A stretch of 64,000 nucleotides of DNA, from positions 15,138 to 79,137 of IMG/VR virus record IMGVR_UViG_3300018057_000010. One strand, written 5' to 3'. The position numbers were made by a program, and so were the translations under genes. The notes beneath the pieces are model-generated. The model searched no databases. It was given only the letters and a program-made list of their open reading frames with translations, and was not told the origin of the DNA. This stretch comes from a virus. The number at the start of each line of letters is the position of its first letter. Position 1 is the first letter of the stretch. Positions 19,465-64,000 of this stretch are shown here, one piece after another.

Positions 19465-21057
19465 CTACGCTGCCAGGTCGACCGGTTGCGGCAAGTTTGT
19501 TGCGACGTTCCAAGGTAGCAGTTCCTCGACACGGTTGATGGGATGATCGGCGATATGCTCCAAGACATAACGCAGATACGCTTCCGGGTCCAGACCATTG
19601 AGCTTGGCAGAGCCCACCAGGGAATAGATAGCTGCAGCCCGTTCCCCACCTGAGTCCGAGCCCGCGAACAGGTAATTCTTTCGGCCCACGGCAATGGAGC
19701 GCAAGGCCCTCTCGGCAGCGTTATTGTCTATCTCAATCCGACCATCGTCGCAGTAAAGCACCAGTGCACTCCAAAGGGCAAGAGCATAGCGAATCGCCGC
19801 CGCAGTGACAGACTTGGGTGACAGCTTGGCTAAAGACTCCTCGAGCCAGGCATGCATAGAATCTAGCAGTGGCCGCGCCCTTTGACTGCGAACCTGTTGT
19901 CGTTGCGCTGCGGGTCGTCCTCGAATTTCCTTTTCGATCGCATACAGGGCCGCGATGCGTTCCACCGCTTCGCTGGCGATCGAAGACTGATGCGCTTCCA
20001 CCAAGTCATAAAACTTACGGCGGATATGCGCCATACAGGGAGCCTGTTGGATGGAACCGTCTTTATAAATTTGGTTGAAACCGGCATAAGCATCTGCCTG
20101 GAGGATGCCATGGAAGTTCGCCAGATGCTGTTGCGGATGTTCTCCTTTGCGATCAGGCGAGTAAGCAAACCATGCAGCAGGTGCGTCCAAAGATCCCCAG
20201 GGGCGATCATCGCGAACGTAAGTCCACAAACGTCCGGTCTTGGTCTTGCCGTTGCCGGGAGCCAGGACCGGCACGGGTGTATCGTCGGCGTGCAGCTTGT
20301 CGGCCGCCATTACGTAGCGGCGCAAGGCTTCCACCAGCGGAGCAAGTAACTGACTACCTTCGCCTACCCACTTGGCTAACGTGGATCGATCCAGTTCGAC
20401 ACCTTCTCGGGCATAGATATCGGACTGTCGGTATAAGGGCAAATGATCACAAAATTTTGCAGTTAGCACGTGAGCTAGAAGTCCAGGACCGGCAAGACCG
20501 CGTTCAATCGGGCGGCTGGGCGCCGCTGCCTGCACGATGGTGTCGCATCCACTGCAGCACAGCCTGGGGCGCACATGCCGAATCACTACGAAGCTGGCCG
20601 GAATGTACTCTAGCACCTCAGAAATATCTTCGCCGAGCTTCTTCAGCGTGCCGCCGCAATCCGGGCAGGACTCTTGCTCAGGGAGATGCGTCTGAACTTT
20701 ACGCGGCAGATGATCTGGCAGTGGGCGCCGCTTTCTGCCTGCTCTTCTTGCTGGCGAGGACGCAGTCTTAGCTGGAGTTTCACTCTCTGGCTGCGAGGCT
20801 TGTTCCGCCTGCTTGGCTTCCAGTTCTTCCAGCTTCAGTTCCAGTTGCTCGATCTGCCGGGTCAGCTTCTCCGACCGCCGTCCAAACTGCATACGTCGCA
20901 ACTTGTCCACCAGCAGTTTCAGATGCTCGATCTCACTGTCGCTGGAGACGATCCGCAGTTGTTGCGCCACAATGATCGCCTTCAAAGCATCTGGCTCCAG
21001 AGCGTCCAGATCAGGCAACGAGAGGTGCGCGGCAACCATGGAAAAAGTATGCCACAA
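19465..21057 (-). CDS. tnpC: IS66 DDE transposase TnpC
   Basis: [44 protein letters not shown]. Confidence 0.95.
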
Positions 21058-28986: not shown

Positions 28987-29311
28987 ACCTGCAACCATAC
29001 ATCGATGACATCGCTATGCCTGCAACGAAGAGACAATACCTGCAACTGTGGAATCCGATCCGTATCGAGCCATTTGCGAGACCTGCAACTCAACTATATG
29101 ACACGTGTATTTGCAATACCTGCAATATGACCCTGCTCTTCCCGCCTGCAACTTTCAGCGCCTTATCCAGTCTGCAACATAAGCCATTTGCCTGTAATAA
29201 CGTTCTGCGAATCTGCAACGTGGACCAGCTGACAATCACCTGCAACGAACACAGCCCAAGGAACAAACCTGCAACACTCGAATGGAACACATCCTCATTT
29301 CTACCTACAAC
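28987..29311 (-). CRISPR. Micro-array A: ~12 minimal repeats GTTGCAG(G/A) separated by ~11-35 nt unique sequence
   Basis: Exact CTGCAAC on + ending at 28995, 29026, 29046, 29089, 29152, 29178, 29219, 29246, 29275, plus 3 variants; identical to the CRISPR repeat 5' end. Confidence 0.6.
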
Positions 29312-52420: not shown

Positions 52421-52749
52421 TCTGCAACTATTCCAGACATGCACCGGCCTGCAACACATGACGCTCACCTGCAACTCTGCTGTATACCACCGGTCTGCAA
52501 CACAAATATACGGCCACGTTAGTCTGCAGTTTTCATGAAGCCGGACCCGCAACAAATCATGATCTCCGAAACCTGCAAGAGAAGCTCTTCCGCCTGCAGC
52601 TTGATATTCTACTTCCGTAAAACCTGCAACACGGCGAGATCGACTGCATTCGCCTGTAACAACTATAGCCTTTTCATCTGCAACATCTATCGATGGAAGT
52701 TTAGCCGCATTTGCCTGCAACTGGAAAACTGACCATGCTCACCTGCAAC
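52416..52749 (-). CRISPR. Micro-array B: ~13 minimal repeats
   Basis: Exact CTGCAAC ending at 52428, 52455, 52475, 52501, 52630, 52684, 52721, 52749 plus 5 variants; the first keeps GCTAGTCTGCAAC of the full repeat. Confidence 0.6.
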
Positions 52750-52768
52750 TGGAAAACCGCCTACGAAA

Positions 52769-53398
52769 TCAGCGAGCCTTCTTCCGGTCCTCGGTGGTGA
52801 AGGCAGCTCGTACGCCCATGCGCCGCGAGGCTACATAGGAGGAAACAGAACTCACCATCTGTCCATAGGCTTGCGCGTTGAGGGAATTGTAAGTCAACGC
52901 AGAATCCATCGTGACGCCCATGGAATCGCCGACGGCGATAGCATCCTGATTCGCTCCCACATAGACAAAATCCCAGTTGTAGATTTCTTTTTGCTGCGTG
53001 ACTAGAGCCTTTACCGTCTCGGCAGTGAATTTCCTGCTGGCATTCTCCTTCCCGTCGGTAATGGTCACCACAATGACATGGGAAGGACGTTGCTCTTCTG
53101 GGAGTTTAGAAAGCTCTTCGCCAAGTTCTACGATTGTTTTTCCCTGCGCATCGTAGAGAGCTGTTCTGCCTCTCGGCTTGAAATCTTCCTGGGTGAATTC
53201 CGGTATATCCTGAATGTTTTTATCGAAAACGACTTCGTATTGATCATCGAACTGCACTAGCTTTAACGCCGCTTCTCCGGGAACCTTTTTCTGGCCCTGA
53301 ACAAAGTCGTTGATCCCTTGGATCGCCGATTCGCGGCTCGCCTGCATCGACCCGGATCGGTCCAGGATTAAGGCTATTCTCGTAAAGTTATCCTTCAT
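52769..53398 (-). CDS. vWA domain protein
   Basis: LILDRSGSM MIDAS, PRGRTALYDA, ITDGKENAS. Confidence 0.9.
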   Translation of the reverse strand: MKDNFTRIALILDRSGSMQASRESAIQGINDFVQGQKKVPGEAALKLVQFDDQYEVVFDKNIQDIPEFTQEDFKPRGRTALYDAQGKTIVELGEELSKLPEEQRPSHVIVVTITDGKENASRKFTAETVKALVTQQKEIYNWDFVYVGANQDAIAVGDSMGVTMDSALTYNSLNAQAYGQMVSSVSSYVASRRMGVRAAFTTEDRKKAR

Positions 53399-53408
53399 AT
53401 CCTCTCCT

Positions 53409-53528
53409 ACCTGCAACCTTGACTTAACTCTGACTTCGACTACATCCACCTGCAACTGGCACAAAACCTGCAACACCGAACATCGGCGGCAAAGCCTGCA
53501 ACATCTCTAGTTCCATGTATCCTGCAAC
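53409..53528 (-). CRISPR. Micro-array C: 5 minimal repeats in the vWA leader
   Basis: CCTGCAAC ending at 53417, 53456, 53474, 53502, 53528. Confidence 0.55.
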
Positions 53529-53569
53529 GGCGCCAGCACCGGTGCGATTCTGGCCTGAATTGATGCTGC

Positions 53570-54277
53570 TTACCATGGAAACCAGTTAATTATTCTATCC
53601 ATCGCCTTTTCGAAGGTATGCAAGACCTCGTTTTTAGGCATGTCGGAGGGAATCTGGGCACGCGTAATTTCGATGAATCGCAGCCGGTCGCCCCAGAACT
53701 CTTTCGACCACCACGGCGGGACGATATTGAGTCGCGTTTCTCCGTGGGAGAGATCGTAATCCTCGAAGACAATTGGCTTTTTGTTTCGCTGGAAAGACGT
53801 CATGCAACTGTAATGGCCGGATTCCGTTATTGCATTCACGACCAGGGAGTCTCTCATATATTTGTCTGGCATATTGGCTATGGATGGGCCAAACCGTTTG
53901 ATCCTCCATTCGTTTGCGAGTCGCATAAACTTGTCGCGATCCCCCTGAACCCGGTCGGACATACTCGTAAAAGGTTCTTTCTTCATGTCGAAATGCGCGA
54001 GACATCCTTCGTTGGTTGTAATGACGGCAGCTGCATCTAAGAACGCCGCAAGAAGGGCGACCGATACCTGTCTTTTCCGCTTCTGCTCCGGCGTTTCCCA
54101 GCTGAAGTCGTAGGGTTCCAGCACCTCTCCGGTTTTGAGCACCAGAATAGCCTGCGATGGCAGCACTCCGGCGCCTCTTTCCTTTGGCATCTCCTTCTCG
54201 TAGGCGGCGACAAGCGCAAGCTTCGCTTTCTCGAATTCCTGCTTAACGATGTCTTCGATGCTGATAATCATCTCCAT
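53570..54277 (-). CDS. Hypothetical protein
   Basis: AGGGAG RBS; long ORF. Confidence 0.6.
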   Translation of the reverse strand: MEMIISIEDIVKQEFEKAKLALVAAYEKEMPKERGAGVLPSQAILVLKTGEVLEPYDFSWETPEQKRKRQVSVALLAAFLDAAAVITTNEGCLAHFDMKKEPFTSMSDRVQGDRDKFMRLANEWRIKRFGPSIANMPDKYMRDSLVVNAITESGHYSCMTSFQRNKKPIVFEDYDLSHGETRLNIVPPWWSKEFWGDRLRFIEITRAQIPSDMPKNEVLHTFEKAMDRIINWFPW

Positions 54278-54340
54278 CTCCCTATGGATTTGCCGGTAAA
54301 AATTTTAGCCCCGCCCGCTTCCACGCGAACGGGGCAAGAT

Positions 54341-54413
54341 GCTCGATAGCCGGATTCGAACCGGCGACCCTCACATTAGAAGTGTGATGCTCTACCAACT
54401 GAGCTAGATCGAA
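54341..54413 (-). tRNA. tRNA-Arg (anticodon TCT)
   Basis: D arm GCTC-AGTTGGTA-GAGC, anticodon arm TCACA-CTTCTAA-TGTGA, T arm GCCGG-TTCGAAT-CCGGC; one acceptor mismatch, no encoded CCA. Confidence 0.85.
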
Positions 54414-54415
54414 TT

Positions 54416-54588
54416 GTTTAGGAGCTTAACGTGCCTAGCCGACCGCCCGAGAACATTTGATCCTGATCACGCTGCTCTACCGCTAAGCTACGAGGCCATA
54501 ATTTTTATGGGGGCCTCGACCGGATTTGAACCGGCGACCGCGTTTTGGAATGTTCCCCGCTCCGGCATATCACAAACTCCCGACAAAC
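54416..54588 (-). ncRNA. Circularly permuted tRNA-like RNA (YrlA/Y-RNA-like)
   Basis: Order T arm, CGAGGCC-C-CCA, 10-nt linker, GGCCTCG, D arm; the anticodon stem extends into a long 5'/3' helix. Confidence 0.7.
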
Positions 54589-54660
54589 CTATTGGGTGAT
54601 AGCCTTAACCTTTTTCACAACGATAACGATAACGACAAACCTGGATTCCCCCTCGCGGGG

Positions 54661-54936
54661 TCACCCAAACTTTTTGAGCCAATCTTGAAGCTGTTCAATG
54701 AGCAGCTTCGCCGAATCCTGATCGAGATCGCACGCTATGGCGACTTTGTCTTTCCCTACGTAATTTGTCATTGTGTCCGACAAGTGTCTCCATGGAATCC
54801 TAAGGTAAACATGGATTTTGTCCAATGGATCGGCAGAGGACTCCACCAGCTGCAGAGATATCTGATGGTCAGCGTAATCGAAATTGGCATCCTCAATCGG
54901 TTCATAACGGACGAAGCCCCGGTCACTTATTTTCAT
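54661..54936 (-). CDS. Hypothetical protein
   Basis: AGGAGG RBS; ESSA...W...LDQDSAKLLIEQLQDW. Confidence 0.6.
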   Translation of the reverse strand: MKISDRGFVRYEPIEDANFDYADHQISLQLVESSADPLDKIHVYLRIPWRHLSDTMTNYVGKDKVAIACDLDQDSAKLLIEQLQDWLKKFG

Positions 54937-54944
54937 AGGCCTCC

Positions 54945-55712
54945 TTAGGACTGCAGGGGCTGGAAGATGTAATCCAGCAGCTTCTTGCCAACCTTATTGC
55001 CATGCACGTCGACTTCCTGCTCGTTGGCCCGCGCCCTGGCGCGAGTGACGGAGCGGATGGTCTTCTCCACACGATCCAACAGCTCCGTTTTTGTCGAAGG
55101 CGTCAACATGGCGCTCCACTCCTGCTCGCGAATCTCGCCCACCGGTTCATCGACGCTCAGCAATTGCGTTTGCGCCTGGAATTTATCGGTGGCCGGAGCT
55201 AGCGTGATGACCTTTGGCTCCTTCTTCGTGCGCGGTTTGACCACATCGCGAGCCTTGTAAACACCCTTCTTAGCATGCTCCGTGTCCAGCTGAAAGCCCT
55301 TGGCCGGATCGAGAGTAGGAATCGCCTGGATCAGCGCCTGAACGTCCTTCAGCCGCTTTTCCAGCTGTAGGAGCGCCGTTGCAGGGACCTGTTTCAGGAT
55401 CGCCGTTTCCTCGTCTTCGATCACCACATCGGCAAAGGCCTGCGTGTTGGCTGTGTCGATGTGGTAACCGGCGTCGATGGCCTTCGCCATGTGTGTCGAG
55501 ATCCACGCGATCTCGTTCGCAACCGTAGTCTGAATCTCTTTCTGTTCTTCGACAACCGTTTTGCTGTTTTCTTCCTTTGCCGTGTATGTCTTCCGCGTTT
55601 CCTCGAAGAGGTGCCGCTTCTTTTCGAAGGTTCCCATCAGATCCTGGCGGAGCTTTTCCGCCTGTCCCTTCAGGTTGCTTTCGACGGCAAGTAACTCGTG
55701 AAGTTTCGCCAT
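54945..55712 (-). CDS. Conserved helical hypothetical protein
   Basis: MAKLHELLAVE...VPATALLQLEK...IPTLDP...ARARAN. Confidence 0.75.
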   Translation of the reverse strand: MAKLHELLAVESNLKGQAEKLRQDLMGTFEKKRHLFEETRKTYTAKEENSKTVVEEQKEIQTTVANEIAWISTHMAKAIDAGYHIDTANTQAFADVVIEDEETAILKQVPATALLQLEKRLKDVQALIQAIPTLDPAKGFQLDTEHAKKGVYKARDVVKPRTKKEPKVITLAPATDKFQAQTQLLSVDEPVGEIREQEWSAMLTPSTKTELLDRVEKTIRSVTRARARANEQEVDVHGNKVGKKLLDYIFQPLQS

Positions 55713-55760
55713 TTCCCTTCTACCTCGTTTCGCTCGATAACCCTAACAACAAATCTGTGA

Positions 55761-55884
55761 ACCTGCAACGCACAATTCAATCCTCACAACCGATAGCCTG
55801 CAACCCGTTCCGGACCGCGCCTTTGCAACTATCTACATCTTCGTCCCTGCAACCGTAATTATGCAATGTAATGCTCCTGCAACC
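55761..55884 (-). CRISPR. Micro-array D: 5-6 minimal repeats
   Basis: CCTGCAAC ending at 55769, 55804, 55853, 55884; TTGCAAC at 55829. Confidence 0.5.
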
Positions 55885-56029
55885 CATAACCCCTTGACTA
55901 TGTCCCGAAAAAGAAGCCGCCCGGTCGTGTACGAGCGGCTCGAAGTTATGCCTATTACTCAGTGAGTCTGTCTGAGAGTAGGTGCTCGTGAAACGACTAT
56001 AACGCAAATGCGAATCTTGACAAGAGCCG

Positions 56030-56542
56030 CTACGAATTTTCCTGTGGAGAGGGATGCGGCAACCAGGAACCCCCGAACAATTCCTTGATCTTTTCCCAGC
56101 TAAGCTTGCGTTTTCTCGGCTCTTTATTGTCGAAGTTGACGGCAAAAAGATAGTAAAGAATAGTGAGCATGCCGCAGTTCAAGTAATAACTGATATCGCT
56201 TGCCAGGGAGTGCGGAGGGAGGAGACCGAGTAGAAACGTCATCGGCTGCAAGAGGACACGAATAAAGATCCAGTCCCAGCCCAGAGTCACATGCATCCTC
56301 CTCTCTCTCGGCATCTGATGCAGAGAGAGAAGCCAAAAGAGAATGACGGAAAGGAGTAGAAATAACTGCCAATGGTGATGCAAATAATAAATGAAAACGC
56401 TTTGCGCCGCCCAGATGCCGATAAGATTCCGCTCCAGGGTTCGCTGGGATATGCTGACCCTTCTTTCCAGCCAAAGCACCAACCGAACCGTAAGCAAAAT
56501 AAGATATGTGTCTGCGATGAGGATGGTTTTCAGGAAAAACAT
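56030..56542 (-). CDS. Multi-pass membrane protein
   Basis: About five hydrophobic segments. Confidence 0.6.
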   Translation of the reverse strand: MFFLKTILIADTYLILLTVRLVLWLERRVSISQRTLERNLIGIWAAQSVFIYYLHHHWQLFLLLSVILFWLLSLHQMPRERRMHVTLGWDWIFIRVLLQPMTFLLGLLPPHSLASDISYYLNCGMLTILYYLFAVNFDNKEPRKRKLSWEKIKELFGGSWLPHPSPQENS

Positions 56543-56593
56543 TCGCTTATCTCACAGCCTTTTACGATCCTGAAAAGTTTACCCCAAAAGCTT

Positions 56594-56869
56594 ACCTGCA
56601 ACCTTCTAATGACGACGAAACGGGAAAGTCCGATTATCGGACTCCCGCCTGCAACACACCACACGTTCCACCATAACCTGCAATCCGGTGATCGTACGCC
56701 TGCAACGAACACTCCCGTGCCTGCAACAGAGTCCAGCTCTTCTTCTTTTTAGCCCGCAACACCTCCACTTCCTTAATCCTGCAACATAGTCCAGTCTTTG
56801 TTGTTCTCAACCTGCAACATCTACCCTTATTTTCCTCTGCGACATTACTCATACCTCCAATTTCGCAAC
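56594..56869 (-). CRISPR. Micro-array E: ~8-10 minimal repeats
   Basis: CCTGCAAC ending at 56602, 56655, 56706, 56727, 56785, 56818 plus variants. Confidence 0.6.
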
Positions 56870-56898
56870 TTGGAGTGGCTCCTTAGCTGATTTTTAAA

Positions 56899-57405
56899 TC
56901 ATCTCGGCTGGGGACAATTATAGGCAATTGCATCGCGAAGTTTACTCAGATCGAAAACGCTGGTAGTCGGAGGCGCGACATATGCCGGGGTGTAACGGAT
57001 AGACACGGACCCGGAATCCAGTAATAAATTAATAAATTTCAGCCGTACCTTTTCGTTTCCTGGATAGGTGAAATGTTTTATATCGTTCACTGAATCCCAG
57101 AGGATCGATTGGCTGGCCCCGTTTATCGTCATATCGAATGTCGATGGCGCGGCTGAACTGTACTCGACGACAGCGCTTTGAGGAGAAAAAAGCAGTTTAT
57201 GTTCGACATTTTTCCCTTTTTTAGAGCAAGCAACTGCTAAATATGGCGATTTTTGTTCCCCAGTAAAAGAGCTATAGGGTTCTTGTGCGTTAACAGTAAG
57301 CATAACGATTCCCTCTGCCCGAGTCACATGTACTTCCTGACCGATACAGAGGCAAGAGGATAATACGATCAAGAATGCTGTAGGTAAATGCTTTCTCGTC
57401 CACAT
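56899..57405 (-). CDS. Secreted hypothetical protein (lower GC)
   Basis: Signal peptide MWTRKHLPTAFLIVLSSCLCIG; F(D)LSKL C-terminus. Confidence 0.6.
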   Translation of the reverse strand: MWTRKHLPTAFLIVLSSCLCIGQEVHVTRAEGIVMLTVNAQEPYSSFTGEQKSPYLAVACSKKGKNVEHKLLFSPQSAVVEYSSAAPSTFDMTINGASQSILWDSVNDIKHFTYPGNEKVRLKFINLLLDSGSVSIRYTPAYVAPPTTSVFDLSKLRDAIAYNCPQPR

Positions 57406-57426
57406 AGATAAAACCTTCCGTTCTTC

Positions 57427-57624
57427 ATAAAAACAGAGCGGCGTCCCGAAGGACGCCGTTCTCAGGTTGCGCACGCGCATTGCCTGTTCGTATAAAAATA
57501 TACATGTTGCCGGTAATGGAAATTCCGTCACATGTTGCAGGTTGACCGTTTTTGGCTTCTAACTCTTTCTTTATTCTTACAACGTACAATCCTGGCCGGT
57601 TGCAGGGTCGACCAAAACTCTACG
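57427..57624 (-). ncRNA. tracrRNA-like gene 2 (anti-repeat ACCGGCAAC, fits the minimal repeat GTTGCAGGT)
   Basis: 57431-57512 is 81/82 identical to 62440-62521; anti-repeat, then hairpins, cUUCGg stem and U tract; promoter upstream. Confidence 0.7.
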
Positions 57625-57630
57625 TTTCCG

Positions 57631-57659
57631 ATACTCCTTGAATCTATAATGTCTGTCAA
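57631..57659 (-). promoter_or_regulatory. Promoter of tracr-like 2, TTGACA-N17-GAGTAT, divergent from cas9
   Basis: Perfect -35; same position relative to the scaffold as the promoter at 62641-62669. Confidence 0.6.
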
Positions 57660-57717
57660 GCAAAAAATTTCGAATTATCTGAAACTACAAAGAAATGCTG
57701 TGCTACAACATTAGGTT

Positions 57718-60700
57718 ATGGTCGCCAAACATAAAGATTACGTTTTAGGGTTACAGATCAATGCGTCCTCTATCGGGTGGGCTGCTGTCCAGTTATCGGA
57801 CAAGGACGATAAGAATCCTGTCGCCTTGATGCACCCCGGCGTGCATCTCTTCGATCCCGGCGTCGAGGGTTCCTTGCTTGAAATCAAGCGAGGGAAGGAT
57901 ATCTCCCGCGCCGTCGCCTACCGTCAGGTAAAACAGTCGCAACGGATACGCGAGCGCCGCTTGGAGCGGGAAACCGAGCTCTTCGCCTTGCTGCAGATGC
58001 AGGGACTTTTGCCTGCCAGCACCAATGGCAGCCCCAAACAGCGTCTCGACACGTTGAATAATTTGGAGCGCGAGCTAGAAAAGGCTCTGGCGGATCGCCA
58101 TCCTCACAACAAGCTGCCCTATATCCTGCGCGCCGATGCCTTGGATCGCCGCCTCAAGCTCTTCGAGCTGGGCCGGATCTTCTATCACCTTGTGCAGCGT
58201 CGCGGATATCAGTCCAACCGGCGCAAACCGGAGAAAGAAGGCCAAGAGGGAGCCGTCAAGCAAGGGATCTCCGAACTCGCCCAGGAGATGCAGAAGCTGA
58301 AAGCTCGCACCTTAGGCGAATACTTCTCCAAAATCGATCCCCAAAAGGTGAAGATCCGCCGCCGCTGGACCTCGCGTCAGATGTATCTCGACGAATTCGA
58401 GCAGATCTGGACCAAACAGCACAAGTATTACCCAGACTTGCTAACCCCGCAGCTGAAAAGCCAGATTCACCGGCTGCTCTTCTTCCAGCGTCCGCTGGCC
58501 TCTGCAAAGCATCTCGTCGGCTTCTGCGAGTTCGAGCCTAAGCAACGCCGCGCTCCGATGTGCAGCATGGAGGCTCAGCGTTTCCGTATGCGGCAACGCA
58601 TCAACGATCTGCGTATTTGCCCCATCGGCCAAGCCGAAGGCTCTCCCTTGACCAAAGAGGAGAAAGAGGCCCTCTATCGGCTGCTGGAGGTCAATCCCCA
58701 GCTCACCTATACCGCCGTCAAAAAGCACTTCGGCTTCCCGAAATCCTCGGAGTTCAATTTCCAGCGCGCCGGAGAAAAACAGATCCTCGGAAATCGCACT
58801 TATGCCCACCATTACAAGGTCTTCGGCGATGCATGGCTCAAGATGACTCCCGAACAACAGGCGGAAACCATCAATATCTGGAATGCCGCCGAAACCGAAA
58901 AACAGCTCGTCACCGCTGGCATGCGCCACTATCTGTTAACCGAAGAGCAGGGAAAACTCTGGGCCAGCGAGTTGCCGGAATCGGGCTATTGTTCTCTGTC
59001 GAAGAAGGCGATCGCCCGCTTAATGCCTCACCTCAACGAAGGCATCGGCTACACTACGGCCGTCGAACGAGAGTACGGCGAGGGAGTACATTTCAAGCCG
59101 ATCCACGAAGAAATCCCTCCCGTTCGCGAGGTCTTCCGCGCTCTGGCGAATCCTGCCGTCGAACGCTCCCTTACGCAGACCCGCAAAATTGTCAACGCCC
59201 TGGTTCGCCGCTATGGCAAGCCGTATCGCATCCATATAGAACTCGGTAACGAACTGCGGCGCAGCCGGAAAGAACGTCAGAATATCCATATCGGCAATAA
59301 GCAGAGAGAGGCTAGCCGCGACAAGCTGCGCGAGCGCGTCAGCGAAGCTACCGGCATCGCCAAACAAAATGTCAGCGGATCGGATATCGAAAAAGTCCAA
59401 TTATGGGACGAGTGCGATGGCTTTTGCCCTTATACCGGCCACAAGATCCCCTTCGATGCTCTCTTTCGCGGCGACGACTGGATGGTGACCAATATCCTTC
59501 CCTTCAACCGCCATCCCGACAATTCCTTCTCGAATAAGACGCTCATCTACGCGCCGGAATTAGCCTCGGTCAAGCGTAACTTCACGCCCTATGAGGCCTA
59601 CGGGAAAAACGAAGACCTCTTCGACGACATCCTCCGCCGCGTCGATCTCTTCAAAGGCGACCTCGCCATCGAGAAATTGCATCGCTTCGAAGTCCGCTCC
59701 CGCGAAGACTTGGAGATCTACACGCAACGCGCCATGAACGACAATCGCTTCGCCACCAAGTGGGCCATGGAGTTAGTCGGCACGCTCTATGGTGGGCGCG
59801 ACGTTCTTCTCCCTCAAGGCGTAACGCGGCGTGCCGTTTGTGGGCGCCCTTCCGCATTGACAGCCTTGGTGCGCCGCAAGTGGGCGCTGAGTGACCTTTA
59901 CCGGGAACTCCCCGACGACTGGCGCGCCCAGACGCTCGATCCCATCGCTATCGCCTGCCTGGACGACGAGATCTTTCATCGCATGACTCGCTATAGCAAG
60001 GATTCGAATGCCATCGAATCCCCTTGGCCGGATTTTATTGACTCGATCCGCTCCCAAGTCGATAGCATCGTCCCTTCCATCCGGGTCGAGAAGAAGCTCA
60101 ACGGAGCCTTACACCAGGAGACGCATTACTCCAAGCCGGTGATCGACGAGCAGGGCCGCTCCTGGGTCACCGTCCGTAAGCCGGTCACGGCCATGAGCAA
60201 ACGCGATATCGAAGCTATCGTCTCCAAGCCCGTTCGGGAGGCTGTGTTGCGCCATTTCCTCGCGCTGGAAGAGGATCTCTCTACCTGCGCCGCTGCGAAT
60301 AACTGGCCGACGATCCAGGTCGGGAAAAGGCCTGCCGTCCCTATCCGGCGCGCCCGCATCCGGAAGGCTCTTACCGTCACCAAGGTAGGCAAAGAAGGCT
60401 TCGAGCGCTACGTCGCCAATGATCGCAATCACCACATGGAGGTCTTCGAAATCGACGATGCCAATGGTCCACGCTATGTCAGCCGCACCGTTTCCCTGCT
60501 GGAAGCAAAAACCCGCTGTAATCGAAAGCAGCCGGTGATCGACGAACGGTTGACTTCGCTCAACGGCGTCTCCGGCCGCCTGCCCAAAGGGGCCAAATAT
60601 AAGCATCTGTTTGTGTGCGCTCTTATGATCGGCGACTTAATCTTGTTACACCGCGATTGCGAGCACGAAAACGATGTCTGCATCCCAGGCATCTATCGCA

Positions 60701-60921
60701 TTCGCGGCATCGCGGCAAATGGACAAGTCACCGTCATGCCGCTCAATGAAACCCGGTCTGCTGTCGAACTCGACAAAGCCCATGAAGGGTGGTCCCCGAA
60801 AGTCGATGCCCTGCGCAAGATGGGCATGGCGCCGGTCAAGGTGGATTTACTTGGAGAACTCCATCCAAATGGTGGCAAGATCGATCTTTTCCAGCCTCGG
60901 AAGGTCGCTACTCACCAATAA
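57718..60921 (+). CDS. cas9: Type II-C-like Cas9, predicted nuclease-dead
   Basis: RuvC-I LGLQINASSIGWA, RRGYQSNR, LFFQRPL, NPAVERSL, RuvC-II IHIEL, HNH-region CPYTG...DNSFSNKTL, LNGALHQET; catalytic D, H, N and H positions substituted. Confidence 0.92.
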   Translation: MVAKHKDYVLGLQINASSIGWAAVQLSDKDDKNPVALMHPGVHLFDPGVEGSLLEIKRGKDISRAVAYRQVKQSQRIRERRLERETELFALLQMQGLLPASTNGSPKQRLDTLNNLERELEKALADRHPHNKLPYILRADALDRRLKLFELGRIFYHLVQRRGYQSNRRKPEKEGQEGAVKQGISELAQEMQKLKARTLGEYFSKIDPQKVKIRRRWTSRQMYLDEFEQIWTKQHKYYPDLLTPQLKSQIHRLLFFQRPLASAKHLVGFCEFEPKQRRAPMCSMEAQRFRMRQRINDLRICPIGQAEGSPLTKEEKEALYRLLEVNPQLTYTAVKKHFGFPKSSEFNFQRAGEKQILGNRTYAHHYKVFGDAWLKMTPEQQAETINIWNAAETEKQLVTAGMRHYLLTEEQGKLWASELPESGYCSLSKKAIARLMPHLNEGIGYTTAVEREYGEGVHFKPIHEEIPPVREVFRALANPAVERSLTQTRKIVNALVRRYGKPYRIHIELGNELRRSRKERQNIHIGNKQREASRDKLRERVSEATGIAKQNVSGSDIEKVQLWDECDGFCPYTGHKIPFDALFRGDDWMVTNILPFNRHPDNSFSNKTLIYAPELASVKRNFTPYEAYGKNEDLFDDILRRVDLFKGDLAIEKLHRFEVRSREDLEIYTQRAMNDNRFATKWAMELVGTLYGGRDVLLPQGVTRRAVCGRPSALTALVRRKWALSDLYRELPDDWRAQTLDPIAIACLDDEIFHRMTRYSKDSNAIESPWPDFIDSIRSQVDSIVPSIRVEKKLNGALHQETHYSKPVIDEQGRSWVTVRKPVTAMSKRDIEAIVSKPVREAVLRHFLALEEDLSTCAAANNWPTIQVGKRPAVPIRRARIRKALTVTKVGKEGFERYVANDRNHHMEVFEIDDANGPRYVSRTVSLLEAKTRCNRKQPVIDERLTSLNGVSGRLPKGAKYKHLFVCALMIGDLILLHRDCEHENDVCIPGIYRIRGIAANGQVTVMPLNETRSAVELDKAHEGWSPKVDALRKMGMAPVKVDLLGELHPNGGKIDLFQPRKVATHQ

Positions 60922-60944
60922 AATCAATGGGCTACAAGATTCCT

Positions 60945-61445
60945 CCTGTAGCCCTGCCTGCTTTCTCGGTAGTCTGCAACGATTAGATATGTTCATGCGA
61001 CAGGAACAAACCTGTAGCCCTGCCTGCTTTCTCGGTAGTCTGCAACTGTGCAAGCAAAGTTATATTAGGTTACGAACCTGTAGCCCTGCCTGCTTTCTCG
61101 GTAGTCTGCAACTGTGCAAGCAAAGTTATATTAGGTTACGAACCTGTAGCCCAGTCTGCTTTCTCGCTAATCTTGCAACGCCTCATTTCCCGTGCAACGC
61201 CCTATGGCTTGCCTGCTTTCCCAATAGTCTGCAACGCAAATTTATGCTTGCAATTCTTGCTGAGTCCTGTAGCCATGGCTTCTCGGTAGCCTGCAAACTC
61301 TACAAATGGCGCATTTCCTGTAGTCCTACTTCCTCTCGCTAGCCTGCTATTTCTGTTGGCATATCGTGATGTCAGTCTATTCTGTATCGCATGCTTACTT
61401 TCTCGCTGTCTGCAACACCAAATGACAATCATCATAGCCTGCAAC
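60945..61445 (-). CRISPR. Array 1: 36-nt repeat GTTGCAGACTACCGAGAAAGCAGGCAGGGCTACAGG, mostly 30-nt spacers
   Basis: Perfect repeats at 60945, 61011, 61077; degenerate at 61143, 61201, 61266, 61317, 61381 and a fragment to 61445; spacers 2 and 3 identical. Confidence 0.92.
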
Positions 61446-61479
61446 CGTTCTGCCTCTTTAGACCAAACGATGTTAACGT

Positions 61480-61515
61480 AAAACGGCCAATGTTTCCACT
61501 GGCCGTTTGTTTGTT
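61480..61515. terminator. Intrinsic terminator (probably bidirectional)
   Basis: aaacggcca...tggccgttt followed by gtttgtt. Confidence 0.6.
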
Positions 61516-61779
61516 ACACCGATTTGTCTAGTAGCTTCTGCTGTGTTTCTTTCGTTTTCCTATCTTGGTTGGCAGGCTGCGGTAGCTTTTCGATTCATGG
61601 GCGCGTTTTCTTGCTTCTCCTTTTGGGAGTTCGCCGCGTTTTTCCATGACGAAGAACTTCTTCCATTGCTTTTTGCTTTCAAATCCAGGCATTATTCCGC
61701 TCCTTTGGGTAGGGATACGGTTGCTACCGGGAGACAAAGCCTGGAGCGATAGGGAATCCGCCAAACGAGCAGTGACTTC

Positions 61780-62007
61780 TTAAACGCTGGCACTGGAAGC
61801 CTTCGGCGTCACGATAGCGGCCTTGGCCACGCCGATCTTGTCGAAGTTTGCGGCCAGGAAATGCACTGTGCCGTAAAACCACGCATAGAACTTACTGCCA
61901 TTGGCGGCGGGTTCCGGCATCGAACGCACCGATCCCGCACAAATCCAGTACAAAGCCACAGAAATCGCTGTTTGATGGGAAAGAATGAAATTCCAAATTG
62001 CTTGCAT
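61780..62007 (-). CDS. Small membrane protein (holin-like)
   Basis: Two hydrophobic segments; AGGGGAG RBS. Confidence 0.5.
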   Translation of the reverse strand: MQAIWNFILSHQTAISVALYWICAGSVRSMPEPAANGSKFYAWFYGTVHFLAANFDKIGVAKAAIVTPKASSASV

Positions 62008-62097
62008 TCGCGCTCCCCTCTTACGAGTGAAGAGGGGTGAAAGCGCGCTATGGATATTTAGCCCGATTTAGCCCGATTTTTCAATAGGAAAGCGCCT

Positions 62098-62412
62098 GCC
62101 TGCAACATCTACCAACCGAAGTCTGCAACCCGATCCATACCGCGTTCCACAATATCTATGCGTCTGCAACCCAGGATCATAAGTACGCCGCTCGTCTGCA
62201 ATACGGAATCAAAAAGCTACGCCTGCAACTCACTCTTACTCTAGCTCGGTAGTCTGCAACTAGAAACTGCACGGAAGAATACGTTTTGTCCCTGTAGCCC
62301 TGCCTGCTTTCTCGGTAGCCTGCAACCGTCATCAATAACGCACACTCGATTTATCCCTAGCCTGCAACGCGAATTATTTCCTGAGATGCCAAGCCGTTCT
62401 CTAGCCTGCAAT
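62098..62412 (-). CRISPR. Array F: one full 36-nt repeat among truncated and minimal repeats
   Basis: Full repeat 62291-62326, 16-nt repeat 62245-62260 with a 30-nt spacer, 12-nt forms at 62357 and 62401, 9-nt forms at 62098-62229. Confidence 0.75.
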
Positions 62413-62439
62413 CTCTACACCGACACTGTTCCCTCCTTC

Positions 62440-62634
62440 AAACAGAACGGCGTCCCGAAGGACGCCGTTCTCAGGTTGCGCACGCGCATTGCCTGTTCGT
62501 ATAAAAATATACATGTTGCCGACTAGCGAATAGCTTTACTCTTTTTGCAGACTGGCTTTCAGATCTCGTGTTTCCCTGAGACTCGCGGATAGATCCACTT
62601 TCCGTGCTCCCGGTTCGTGTTTGCAGACTAGCTG
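62440..62634 (-). ncRNA. tracrRNA-like gene 1 (anti-repeat TCGCTAGTCGGCAAC)
   Basis: 14/15 complementary to GTTGCAGACTAGCGA; followed by stem-loops and AGAACGGCGTCC-TTCG-GGACGCCGTTCT. Confidence 0.8.
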
Positions 62635-62640
62635 AGATTG

Positions 62641-62669
62641 ATAATCCCAAATCTTCGATTCCATGTCAA
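62641..62669 (-). promoter_or_regulatory. Promoter of tracr-like 1, TTGACA-N17-GATTAT
   Basis: Perfect -35; upstream direct repeat TTTTTTACACAGTTCGTT x2. Confidence 0.65.
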
Positions 62670-62777
62670 GTATATTTTTTACACAGTTCGTTGTTTTTTT
62701 TACACAGTTCGTTCTATGGTTTGTAAAATTGACTGCAATACGAGAGATACCAGCTGTGAGCAAGAGTTGATGAATGG

Positions 62778-63353
62778 GTTGCAGCTTGGCTCGGGCACTG
62801 CTTCGATTGCAGACGCGAAGCTAACGGCGACGAGGCAGATGGTTGCAGATTGGCAAAAAGACAGGTTTAGCGGCCAGACTCAATTGCAGACTAGCGAGAA
62901 GGTGCAGTCTACGCGCTAAGAAATGCAAACCATTCCCGTTGCAGACTACCGAGAAGGCAGGATTACAGGAGTTTGATGGCGTGCCGGTATTGCAGGCTAG
63001 CAAGAAAGCAGGGCTACAGGATGTCAAGAACTTGGAATCCCGATCTCCAAGTTGCAGACTAACGAGAAGGCAGGCTGAGCTACAGGGGCGCGTGTATGTC
63101 AGATATGAGCCAATTTGTTGCAGACTACCGAGAAAGCGAGATGGGCTACAGGAAGCGAGCGGGAGGGTACCTCTGGCCGATAGTTGCAGACTACCGAGAA
63201 AGCAGGCTGGTTACAGGGAATTTCTTGAACCGGATTATCGCGATCTCGTTGCAGGCTAGCGAGAGAACAAGGCAGGGCCATAGGGACGTTGAGCGTGGTA
63301 TTACCACTGACGTAGCTGGTAGAACTTATTCGCTTCTTCCTCGTTGCAGAACC
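62778..63353 (+). CRISPR. Array G: same repeat family, opposite orientation, 30-nt spacers
   Basis: Repeats at 62938, 62989, 63051, 63117, 63183, 63248; degenerate copies at 62778-62915 and 63343. Confidence 0.85.
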
Positions 63354-63544
63354 ATCCATCTACGTCGTGAATCATGGTGGACTTATCTCGAACAGTTCCA
63401 CATAAAGTACACTTGTGTTTGCTGGAGAACCATTGCGGAAACAGAAATTCGAGCATTTTTTGCATGGCGAAGCTCTTTCTAAGTTGGATCGTGTTACCAC
63501 TCAGATAAAAATGATTCTTTTCTGGATGATTGTCAAGAGGATTA

Positions 63545-63994
63545 TCTCGCTAATCTGCAACGCTTCCGGACACTCAGGCTCACGTGAAGACCCGTGTTGC
63601 AACAAACCCATCGTCTCTCGCTAGTCTGCAACATGACAGATGGGCACTCAGACTCACTTCAGAGCAGGGTCGCAACAAACCCATCGCCTCTCGCTAGTCT
63701 GCAACATGACAGATGGGCACTCAGACTCACTTCAGAGCAGGGTCGCAACAAACCCATCGCCTCTCGCTAGTCTGCAACCCTGAACGCTGAGCGAGCCGAC
63801 CCAGCTGTCGAAGTTACAGCAAACCCATCATCTCTCGCTAGTCTGCAACCATTGGCAAGCTGGTAGAACTCGGCGGCAGCCCGTGGTTACAGCAAACCCA
63901 TCATCTCTCGCTAGCCTGCAACGCCGGATTCCTTTCGAAGCTTTCGACTCACATTGGGTTACAGCAAACCCATCATCTCTCGCTAGCCTGCAAC
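63545..63994 (-). CRISPR. Array H: 37-nt repeat GTTGCAGACTAGCGAGAGATGATGGGTTTGCTGTAAC, 34-36-nt spacers (may continue past the window)
   Basis: Repeats at 63596, 63669, 63742, 63813, 63886, 63958 and a partial one ending at 63561; one spacer duplicated. Confidence 0.92.
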
Positions 63995-64000
63995 ACATCG

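What the first reader, a model, noticed from the sequence alone, without database searches (positions are those of the whole stretch)
57427..64000. Phage-encoded natural dCas9 module: dead effector, two tracrRNAs, several arrays, no adaptation genes
Seen: an uninterrupted 1067-aa II-C-like Cas9. RuvC-I reads LGLQINASSIGW, so the SpCas9 D10-equivalent is Q (CAG at 57754, at least 2 nt from Asp). HNH reads WMVTNILP (D839/H840-equivalents are T/N, 59488-59493), and the N863-equivalent is absent (ELASVK). RuvC-III reads WRAQTLD instead of HHAxD. The RuvC-II Glu and the structural motifs are kept. It is flanked by two tracr-like genes and several arrays; no cas1/cas2 or transposase is adjacent. Established: these residues are needed for cleavage, and nuclease-dead RNA-guided proteins (Cas12k, Cas12m, TldR) or short-guide Cas9 (Francisella scaRNA, S. 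pyogenes tracr-L) act as DNA binders or repressors. Inference: loss of both active sites in an otherwise intact ORF with maintained RNAs points to exaptation as a programmable repressor or recruiter used against host or competitor genes.
Basis: partly seen in the sequence, partly recalled or inferred. Interest (0 to 1): 0.95.

Follow-up and report, generated by a model that had tools for sequence, protein, structure and literature searches.

The report
Phage-borne natural nuclease-dead Cas9 module
A peat-soil phage carries a full-length Cas9 whose two DNA-cutting sites are both destroyed while its RNA- and DNA-binding parts, guide arrays and helper RNAs are kept, which suggests a natural "dCas9" that binds DNA rather than cutting it, a form not found in the papers searched here.

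Summary
ORF 57718-60921 (+) is a 1067-aa type II-C Cas9 (TIGR01865, 535 bits). The AF2 model has pLDDT 88 and matches Nme1Cas9 over its full length (TM 0.74). Against about 270 homologues it alone has D13Q (RuvC-I), T591/N592 for D/E-H, N615L (HNH) and H738Q (RuvC-III).

The erosion is selective. RuvC loses 16 of 50 near-invariant residues, the REC lobe only 3 of 58 (p=0.0003).

Two tracrRNA genes share a 99%-identical scaffold and terminator. At least three arrays conserve only the tracr-pairing 17-18 nt of the repeat. The 79-kb phage record holds no cas1, cas2, SNF2, TniQ or rve. The locus occurs nearly unchanged in 24 peat and wetland runs.

Best reading (0.5): a self-contained RNA-guided DNA binder or silencer. 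Its targets are unknown, because no spacer match was found. Rivals are an anti-CRISPR decoy like the published phage II-C2 Cas9, young decay, and an RNA-level role.

No homologue is closer than 42% identity. At least two other Cas9 lineages show the same RuvC-III/HNH erosion with REC kept. Classed as a new variant of a known kind.

The parts
57431..57531 (-). tracrRNA copy 2: scaffold 57431-57505 with terminator hairpin 57439-57458, then a divergent anti-repeat 57506-57531
   Evidence: 82-nt repeat D7, 99% identical to copy 1. Fold z = -2.9 with a terminator. Its anti-repeat pairs with the canonical repeats only at random level, -8 to -11 kcal/mol.
57532..57717 (.). Divergent control region between tracr copy 2 and cas9. 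It holds two more CCTGCAAC segments on the minus strand (57534-57544, 57599-57609) and a TATAAT at about 57646.
   Evidence: Read directly from the sequence. Promoter assignment is by eye only.
57718..60921 (+). dCas9: a 1067-aa type II-C Cas9 homologue with RuvC-I D->Q, HNH D/E-H->T-N, HNH N->L and RuvC-III H->Q
60929..60954 (-). Terminator-like hairpin at the trailer end of array A1, for minus-strand transcription
60945..61445 (-). Array A1: 36-nt repeats with 30-nt spacers (period 66), spacer 2 = spacer 3, then a degenerate tail of repeat fragments up to 61445
   Evidence: Pairing to the tracr copy 1 anti-repeat is -19 kcal/mol against -10 +/- 3.4 for random sequence.
62098..62412 (-). Eroded array with one full repeat (62291-62326) and truncated forms that keep the GTTGCAG end
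62440..62634 (-). tracrRNA copy 1: scaffold and terminator 62440-62514, anti-repeat 62515-62540, and a possible long-form leader with two more anti-repeat-like segments. A promoter-like site lies at 62669-62641.
   Evidence: Its anti-repeat pairs with the A1, G and H repeats at -17 to -24 kcal/mol.
62701..63284 (+). Promoter-like site (62701-62729) followed by array G on the plus strand: 8 heterogeneous repeats, mostly with 30-nt spacers
63545..64000 (-). Array H: 37-nt repeats that share the first 17 nt with the other arrays, 34-36-nt spacers, spacer 2 = spacer 3. It runs to the contig end and its leader-side unit is absent in two runs.
28988..29311 (-). Micro-repeat cluster: 11 copies of RYCTGCAAC on the plus strand, spaced 20-43 nt, in an intergenic region
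52421..56818 (-). Four further intergenic micro-repeat clusters (52421-52749, 53410-53528, 55762-55883, 56595-56818) in the same orientation as the flanking minus-strand genes
   Evidence: Pairing to tracr copy 2 is only about 1 SD better than control.

Best explanation
This is a self-contained, adaptation-less type II-C derivative carried by a temperate peat phage. It encodes a Cas9 that can no longer cut either DNA strand but keeps its guide-RNA and DNA-binding architecture.

Shown: the protein is a full-length Cas9 homologue, and four of its seven catalytic positions are replaced: D13Q, H592N, N615L and H738Q (T591 also replaces the D/E before the HNH His). Erosion is concentrated in RuvC and HNH, while the REC lobe and WED/PI domains stay conserved. 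A tracrRNA (copy 1) with its own terminator pairs strongly with the conserved 5' 17-18 nt of the repeats of three arrays. The arrays carry promoter-like and terminator-like sites in the orientation that this pairing requires.

Inferred: crRNA:tracrRNA duplexes load the dead Cas9. It then binds PAM-flanked complementary DNA and blocks transcription or replication, as in CRISPRi, without cleavage. The most likely targets are competing mobile elements or host genes, during lysogeny or early infection. Spacers are kept or changed by recombination, or by a host Cas1-Cas2 acting in trans.

Not resolved: the targets, the PAM, and the role of tracr copy 2 and of the 8-9-nt micro-repeat clusters.
For: Homology and fold:
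- TIGR01865 scores 535 bits against a cut-off of 100.
- NmeCas9 is the best solved relative, E 8e-59.
- The AF2 model has pLDDT 88 and pTM 0.82. Its top Foldseek hit is Nme1Cas9-sgRNA, TM 0.74 over the full length.

Dead sites: the substitutions are unique among 119 plus 150 homologues.

Selective erosion:
- The protein deviates at 16 of 50 near-invariant RuvC columns but at only 3 of 58 REC columns (p=0.0003).
- Against a broader background, RuvC-III is 8/21 and REC is 1/30 (p=0.002).
- GC3 is 0.70, like the other phage genes.
- Three independent eroded lineages (P0373/P0350, P0294) show the same pattern, with RuvC-III 8-10/21 and REC 1-4/30.

RNAs:
- The tracr folds have z about -3 and a terminator.
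- Anti-repeat 1 pairs with the repeats at -17 to -24 kcal/mol, against -10 +/- 3.4 for random sequence.
- Repeat positions 1-18 carry 1.55 bits per position and positions 19-36 carry 0.48.

Persistence: the locus is in 24 peat and wetland runs from 2017-2021. Four laid runs show no indels, and three of the four cas9 codon variants seen are synonymous. Array H differs between runs at its leader end.

No cas1, cas2, SNF2, TniQ or rve is in the record.

Phage context: terminase, tail fibre, DnaB, RecT and integrase, in an IMG/VR record rated 95% complete. TerL and the dCas9 both have a longest contig of 96,485 nt.

Precedents for nuclease-less silencing by element-borne CRISPR systems: V-M and type IV (PMC11656645), and trans acquisition of spacers by type IV-A3 (10.1101/2023.06.23.546257).
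Against: - No protospacer was found for any spacer. The phage itself, INPHARED phages and four 20-mers in IMG/VR were searched, so guide-dependent targeting is unproven.
- Three bridge-helix arginines are replaced (R68Y, R72K, R75Q), which could weaken guide binding.
- Repeats are heterogeneous and two spacers are duplicated, as in arrays that are not being renewed.
- One ENA assembly holds an allele with a 1-nt deletion at codon 735.
- The terminal branch is about 4 times the median. Together with only about 7 population variants, this means purifying selection after inactivation cannot be measured.
- tracr copy 2 has no strongly matching repeat in the record.
- The contig ends inside array H, so the right flank is unseen.
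Confidence: 0.5

Rival explanations
1. Anti-CRISPR decoy. As proposed for the phage II-C2 Cas9, the dead Cas9 and a phage tracrRNA capture the crRNAs or tracrRNA of a host type II-C system and so disarm host immunity. The phage arrays and micro-repeats would then act as extra sponges.
For: - Published precedent: a phage II-C Cas9 with a dead RuvC whose tracrRNA anti-repeat perfectly matches the host repeats (PMC10910872; PMC12669027; PMC11656645).
- tracr copy 2 has an anti-repeat that matches no array in the record, so it could be aimed at a host repeat.
- Phages are known to use tracr-derived RNAs against Cas9 (10.64898/2026.06.01.729453).
- Related II-C Cas9s occur in peat Acidobacteria such as Terracidiphilus.
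Against: - Unlike II-C2, this locus has its own arrays, and their repeats pair with its own tracr copy 1.
- It has no SNF2 helicase, and its HNH site is dead as well.
- The nearest cellular Cas9 is only 40-42% identical, which makes sharing of scaffold RNAs doubtful.
- Repeats of the relatives that could be examined differ in sequence.
- A complement of anti-repeat 2 was found only as single chance hits in IMG/VR.
- The host is unknown, so the key test could not be run.
Confidence: 0.2
2. Young relic. A captured type II-C locus lost its adaptation genes and its nuclease activity, and is decaying without any function.
For: - Repeats are degenerate and arrays eroded.
- Spacers are duplicated.
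- There is no cas1 or cas2.
- The protein deviates at 28 of 162 near-invariant columns, against a median of 2, and sits on a long branch.
- One allele is frameshifted.
- Phages with 68-75% identical TerL exist, but no Cas9 closer than 42% exists anywhere, so the module is not a core gene of the phage group.
Against: - A 1067-codon frame stays open at about 60% divergence from every relative.
- REC (55 of 58) and WED/PI (18 of 21) near-invariant residues are kept, while RuvC is eroded.
- The same pattern recurs in independent lineages.
- Only the tracr-pairing half of the repeats is conserved.
- The two tracr scaffolds are 99% identical and keep intact terminators.
- The locus is unchanged, without indels, in four runs from different years.
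Confidence: 0.15
3. RNA-level or self-directed role. dCas9:tracrRNA docks on the 8-9-nt GUUGCAGG(U) elements embedded in the phage's own intergenic transcripts. These would be non-canonical or scaRNA-like guides, used to process or regulate phage mRNAs or to make many short guides.
For: - 37 micro-repeats lie in five intergenic regions, all in the sense of the flanking genes, spaced 18-53 nt.
- They share the first 8-9 nt of the CRISPR repeat.
- All repeats read GTTGCAG where both anti-repeats would pair with GTTGCCG, so the same mismatch at position 6 recurs.
- Precedents are the scaRNAs and viral scaRNAs described in 10.64898/2026.06.01.729453.
Against: - Pairing of the micro-repeats to anti-repeat 2 is only about 1 SD better than GTTGCAG plus random sequence.
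- Spacing is irregular.
- No 11-13-nt guide matches were found in the phage, including its cas9 promoter region.
- The motif could instead be a protein-binding site unrelated to Cas9.
- Related phages could not be fetched to see whether they carry the motif without carrying Cas9.
Confidence: 0.15

Closest known systems
Type II-C Cas9 (NmeCas9, GeoCas9 and their metagenomic relatives)
   Same: Length, domain order and predicted fold match (TM 0.74 to 6jdq). It has 36-nt repeats with 30-nt spacers, a tracrRNA with an anti-repeat, two hairpins and a terminator, and arrays whose crRNA sense runs opposite to cas9.
   Different: RuvC-I Asp, HNH Asp/Glu-His, HNH Asn and RuvC-III His are all replaced. 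There is no cas1 or cas2. It has two tracrRNA genes, several heterogeneous arrays and a phage location. It is at most 42% identical to any other Cas9.
Variant II-C2: phage Cas9 with inactivated RuvC and active HNH (Altae-Tran et al. 2023, PMC10910872; Makarova et al. 2025, PMC12669027)
   Same: It is a phage-encoded II-C Cas9 with a dead RuvC site and a nearby tracrRNA, and it lacks an adaptation module.
   Different: Here the HNH site is dead too, CRISPR arrays are present and pair with the phage's own tracrRNA, and no SNF2 helicase is present. The II-C2 sequences were not on hand, so kinship could not be tested.
Nuclease-dead RNA-guided binders: Cas12m (V-M), Cas12c, type IV-A, TldR and exapted Cas12f homologues
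   Same: Each is a mobile-element-borne effector that has lost its nuclease, keeps its guides and usually lacks adaptation genes, and acts by binding or silencing.
   Different: They belong to other protein families (Cas12/TnpB or class 1). No such derivative of Cas9 was found in the papers searched.
Short-guide repression by active Cas9: F. novicida scaRNA, S. pyogenes tracr-L, and phage vsgRNAs and vscaRNAs (10.64898/2026.06.01.729453)
   Same: Cas9 is used as a repressor. Degenerate or short repeat-like elements and long tracr forms lie near cas9. Phages use tracr-derived RNAs.
   Different: Those systems rely on a catalytically active host Cas9 and truncated guides. Here the protein itself is dead and the phage encodes it.

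Membership tests
Cas9 (type II effector, TIGR01865) | Full-length sequence and fold homology: RuvC split by REC and HNH, then WED/PI | tested here: met
   TIGR01865 at 535 bits against a cut-off of 100. Foldseek top hit Nme1Cas9, TM 0.74.
Cas9 (type II effector, TIGR01865) | RuvC catalytic residues (Asp of motif I, Glu of motif II, His and Asp of motif III) | tested here: not met
   D13Q and H738Q, with E508 and D741 kept
Cas9 (type II effector, TIGR01865) | HNH catalytic residues (Asp/Glu-His and the metal-binding Asn) | tested here: not met
   T591, N592 and L615
Type II CRISPR-Cas locus | A tracrRNA whose anti-repeat is complementary to the repeat | tested here: met
   Copy 1 pairs at -17 to -24 kcal/mol against -10 for random sequence. 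Scaffold and terminator are present. Expression was not tested.
Type II CRISPR-Cas locus | CRISPR array next to cas9 | tested here: met
   Arrays A1, G and H
Type II CRISPR-Cas locus | Adaptation module cas1-cas2 | tested here: not met
   No Pfam Cas1 or Cas2 match in the 79-kb record. The record is incomplete at its right end.
Variant II-C2 (phage Cas9, proposed anti-CRISPR) | RuvC inactivated | tested here: met
   D13Q and H738Q
Variant II-C2 (phage Cas9, proposed anti-CRISPR) | HNH apparently active | tested here: not met
   H592N, N615L and T591
Variant II-C2 (phage Cas9, proposed anti-CRISPR) | Associated SNF2 helicase and no CRISPR array | tested here: not met
   No SNF2 match; several arrays are present
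Variant II-C2 (phage Cas9, proposed anti-CRISPR) | Phage tracrRNA anti-repeat matches the host repeats | not testable with these tools
   The host is unknown.
RNA-guided nuclease-dead silencers (works like; not homologous) | Guide-dependent DNA binding without cleavage | not testable with these tools
   This needs biochemistry. Only the loss of catalytic residues and the retention of binding domains are shown.

The most novel reading that the evidence does not exclude
The phage runs a Cas9-based regulatory network of its own. A dead Cas9 is served by two specialised tracrRNAs. One reads conventional arrays. The other reads dozens of 8-9-nt minimal repeats embedded in the phage's own intergenic transcripts. 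These yield short guides or docking sites that time phage gene expression or reprogram the host. The same solution has arisen several times in peat-soil type II-C lineages (P0373/P0350, P0294/P0028).
Probability: 0.15. Interest if true: 0.95.

Novelty: new variant of a known kind. Interest (0 to 1): 0.8.

Why it matters
Engineered dCas9 is a mainstay of CRISPRi. Natural nuclease-dead derivatives are known for Cas12, TnpB and class 1 systems. The 2025 CRISPR classification (PMC12669027) lists only a RuvC-dead, HNH-active phage Cas9 without arrays. A doubly dead Cas9 that keeps arrays and tracrRNAs would fill this gap. It would show that type II systems are also exapted by mobile elements. It would also offer a naturally optimised binder with compact guides. 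The recurrence of the same erosion pattern in other lineages suggests a class that annotation pipelines overlook, because they label these proteins 'Cas9 endonuclease'.

Tried and rejected
The 96-kb contig, the variant alleles and the contexts of P0373, P0350, P0294 and P0028 could therefore not be fetched.
- Related loci: peptide scans with P0001 found nothing in IMG/VR. In metagenome and genome contigs they found only relatives at 37% identity or less. The alignment-based IMG/VR scan found 9 viral-contig Cas9s, all catalytically intact, but one of its two patterns required an intact RuvC-III motif.
- Spacer targets: there is no self-match beyond duplicated spacers and no seed match of 11 nt or more at the cas9 promoter. 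INPHARED gave only chance hits at E of about 1 or higher. Four 20-mers gave no IMG/VR hit. Spacers of arrays in L005, L007 and L008 do not match the phage.
- Repeat 17-mer and anti-repeat-2 complement in IMG/VR: only single chance hits.
- Host identification failed.
- Expression: no RNA holder was listed among the sequencing runs.
- dN/dS is not computable. Only three single-residue protein variants and four codon variants in laid contigs exist.
- A CAST-like role was rejected: no TniQ or rve.
- Rfam has no match to the tracr or arrays.
- A simple search for the tracrRNA of relatives in L005, L007 and L008 failed.
- Neighbouring small ORFs have no informative family.


Full report
**Where the locus lies.** The window is bases 15138-79137 of a 79,137-nt IMG/VR virus record that is linear and rated 95% complete by CheckV. 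The window's end is the contig's end. PHROGs identify a large terminase, a tail fibre, a DnaB helicase, a C5 methyltransferase, a serine integrase, a DnaD-like initiator, RecT and an IS66 transposase. The finding therefore sits in a temperate-phage genome. The exact protein and the phage's TerL both have a longest contig of 96,485 nt. This suggests an independent assembly links them, and that about 17 kb of the element is missing here.

**The observation.** ORF 57718-60921 (+) encodes 1067 residues without a stop.
- It matches NCBIfam TIGR01865 (Cas9) at 535 bits against a cut-off of 100.
- It matches Pfam Cas9_a and HNH_4.
- Its best solved relative is NmeCas9, E 8e-59.

The residue-by-residue alignment to NmeCas9 gives D16->Q13, E484->E508, D587/H588->T591/N592, N611->L615, H767/H768->A737/Q738 and D771->D741.

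In a MAFFT alignment with 119 homologues, the catalytic columns read D in 115, H in 119, N in 118 and H in 119. The query is the only sequence with all these changes. In 150 representatives of 50%-identity clusters, taken from an exhaustive phmmer search of 1.84 billion proteins, the picture is the same. By the established roles of these residues in SpCas9 (D10, H840, N863, H983), neither strand should be cut. That step rests on knowledge of the family, not on an assay.

**Is it a decaying gene?** Several results argue against simple decay.
- An AlphaFold2 model built on 96 homologues has mean pLDDT 88 and pTM 0.82. It superposes on Nme1Cas9-sgRNA over its full length, TM 0.74.
- The protein deviates from columns that are at least 95% invariant 28 times out of 162, against a median of 2 for its relatives.
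- The deviations are not spread evenly. They fall at RuvC-I 3/11, RuvC-II 3/13, RuvC-III 10/26, HNH 3/26, bridge helix 3/8, REC 3/58 and WED/PI 3/21. RuvC against REC gives p=0.0003.
- A broader background gives RuvC-III 8/21 against REC 1/30, p=0.002.
- GC3 is 0.70, in the range of the other phage genes.

So the parts that hold the guide and the DNA have stayed under constraint, while the nuclease parts have drifted or been remodelled.

Three caveats apply. Three bridge-helix arginines are replaced. The terminal branch is about four times the median. One ENA assembly holds an allele with a 1-nt deletion at codon 735.

**The RNAs.** Two copies of an 82-nt segment (57431-57512 and 62440-62521, 99% identical) fold on the minus strand. 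Each forms a small hairpin, a second stem-loop and a GC-rich terminator hairpin followed by a U tract, with z about -3. Immediately 5' of each scaffold lies an anti-repeat.

The anti-repeat of copy 1 pairs with the repeats of arrays A1 (60945-61235), G (62842-63273) and H (63545-63994) at -17 to -24 kcal/mol. Random 26-mers give -10 +/- 3.4. The anti-repeat of copy 2 pairs with them only at random level.

The strand on which each array must be transcribed to pair with the tracrRNA agrees with three features. A terminator-like hairpin lies at the trailer of A1. A divergent promoter-like pair lies between tracr copy 1 and array G. An AT-rich sequence follows the last H repeat in other assemblies.

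Across 21 repeats, positions 1-18 (the tracr-pairing part retained in mature type II crRNAs) carry 1.55 bits per position. Positions 19-36 carry 0.48. Selection therefore appears to act on crRNA:tracrRNA pairing and not on the half used by the integrase. This fits the absence of cas1 and cas2. A1 has the canonical II-C period of 66, as do arrays of relatives, although their repeat sequences differ.

**Population data.** The 6.1-kb locus is held by 24 peat and wetland metagenome runs from 2017-2021. They may belong to one sampling campaign, and four may be the source of this record. Contigs of four runs laid on 55500-64000 show no indels. Within cas9 there are three synonymous changes and one T1012I change. 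Three further single-residue protein variants exist. These are too few for dN/dS. In two runs the sequence that follows the last H repeat (63994) instead follows the repeat ending at 63922. The leader-side unit is therefore variable, and other spacers follow the repeat ending at 63632. This points to array turnover or to further arrays in the missing part.

**Function.** No spacer has a match in the phage itself, in 50,697 GenBank phages or, for four 20-mers, in IMG/VR. No 11-nt seed matches the cas9 promoter region. The targets are unknown. The A1 spacers are AT-rich (33-37% GC) and the H spacers are GC-rich (51-65%).

I commit to an RNA-guided, non-cleaving DNA binder or silencer that uses its own guides (0.5). 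The reasons are that the system is self-contained, that the conserved features are the ones such a role needs, and that nuclease-less, adaptation-less CRISPR systems on mobile elements are known to silence competitors (PMC11656645; 10.1101/2023.06.23.546257).

The main rival (0.2) is the decoy model proposed for the only published phage Cas9 with a dead nuclease domain. That protein is RuvC-dead and HNH-active, is linked to an SNF2 helicase, has no array, and its tracrRNA matches the host repeats (PMC10910872; named II-C2 in PMC12669027). The present locus fails three of those features. Its orphan tracr copy 2 keeps the idea alive, and the host could not be identified.

Decay (0.15) and an RNA-level or self-directed role tied to the micro-repeats (0.15) remain possible. 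A CAST-like role is rejected, because there is no TniQ or rve.

**Micro-repeats.** The 7-mer CTGCAAC occurs 59 times on the plus strand of the window, against roughly 4 expected for a random 7-mer on one strand (my estimate). 37 copies lie in clusters with consensus RYCTGCAAC, spaced 18-53 nt. Most are in five intergenic regions outside the CRISPR locus: 28988-29311, 52421-52749, 53410-53528, 55762-55883 and 56595-56818. All have the orientation of arrays A1 and H and of the flanking genes. They equal the first 8-9 nt of the repeat. Their pairing to tracr copy 2 is only about 1 SD better than control. Whether they are minimal guide units, scaRNA-like elements (compare 10.64898/2026.06.01.729453) or an unrelated protein-binding motif stays open.

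**Novelty.** No Cas9 closer than 42% identity exists among 1.84 billion cluster representatives, while TerL has relatives at 68-75% identity. The module is therefore an accessory of this phage lineage. Searches of about 8.4 million papers and preprints found no natural Cas9 with both sites dead.

In the same II-C neighbourhood I found two further supported clades with catalytic substitutions:
- P0373 (E508R, H592Y, N615T, H738Q, D741S) with P0350.
- P0294 (a Terracidiphilus MAG protein) with P0028 and P0013/14/16.

They do not group with P0001 with support (0.23). They show the same RuvC-III/HNH erosion with REC kept. This recurrence supports exaptation and hints at an unrecognised class.

**Verdict.** I class it as a new variant of a known kind, with interest 0.8.

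Noticed in passing
proteins P0373, P0350, P0294, P0028, P0013, P0014, P0016 (not in the window): Two other supported clades of type II-C Cas9 homologues carry catalytic-site substitutions. P0373 has both sites dead, and P0294 comes from a Terracidiphilus MAG. Both clades show the same RuvC-III/HNH erosion with the REC lobe kept. Their genomic contexts are unknown.
   Followed up: partly
window 28988-29311, 52421-52749, 53410-53528, 55762-55883, 56595-56818: Clusters of an 8-9-nt motif (RYCTGCAAC) lie in intergenic regions, all on one strand and spaced 18-53 nt. The motif is identical to the first bases of the CRISPR repeat. They may be minimal guide units or an unrelated regulatory motif.
   Followed up: partly
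window 54341-54560 (-): A tRNA gene (Rfam tRNA, 59 bits) is followed by a Y RNA-like (YrlA) match at 34.7 bits, below the gathering score of 69.
   Followed up: no
window 19465-21057 (-): An IS66-family transposase lies inside the phage genome. Its nearest relatives are 85% identical, which suggests a recent insertion.
   Followed up: no
window 63301-63465 (-) and 61528-62007 (-): Small ORFs lie between the arrays: a 54-aa protein with paired Cys motifs, a very basic 78-aa protein and a 75-aa hydrophobic protein. None has an informative family, so roles as Acr/Aca or accessory proteins are untested.
   Followed up: partly
window 63545-64000 and beyond the contig end: In other assemblies an AT-rich sequence follows the last array H repeat. 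In two runs it instead follows the repeat one unit earlier. Other spacers follow the repeat ending at 63632, so the array is polymorphic or has copies in the missing part of the genome.
   Followed up: partly
window 60243: All four laid runs read C where the window has T, a synonymous change at codon 842. The window's allele is therefore the minority one.
   Followed up: yes
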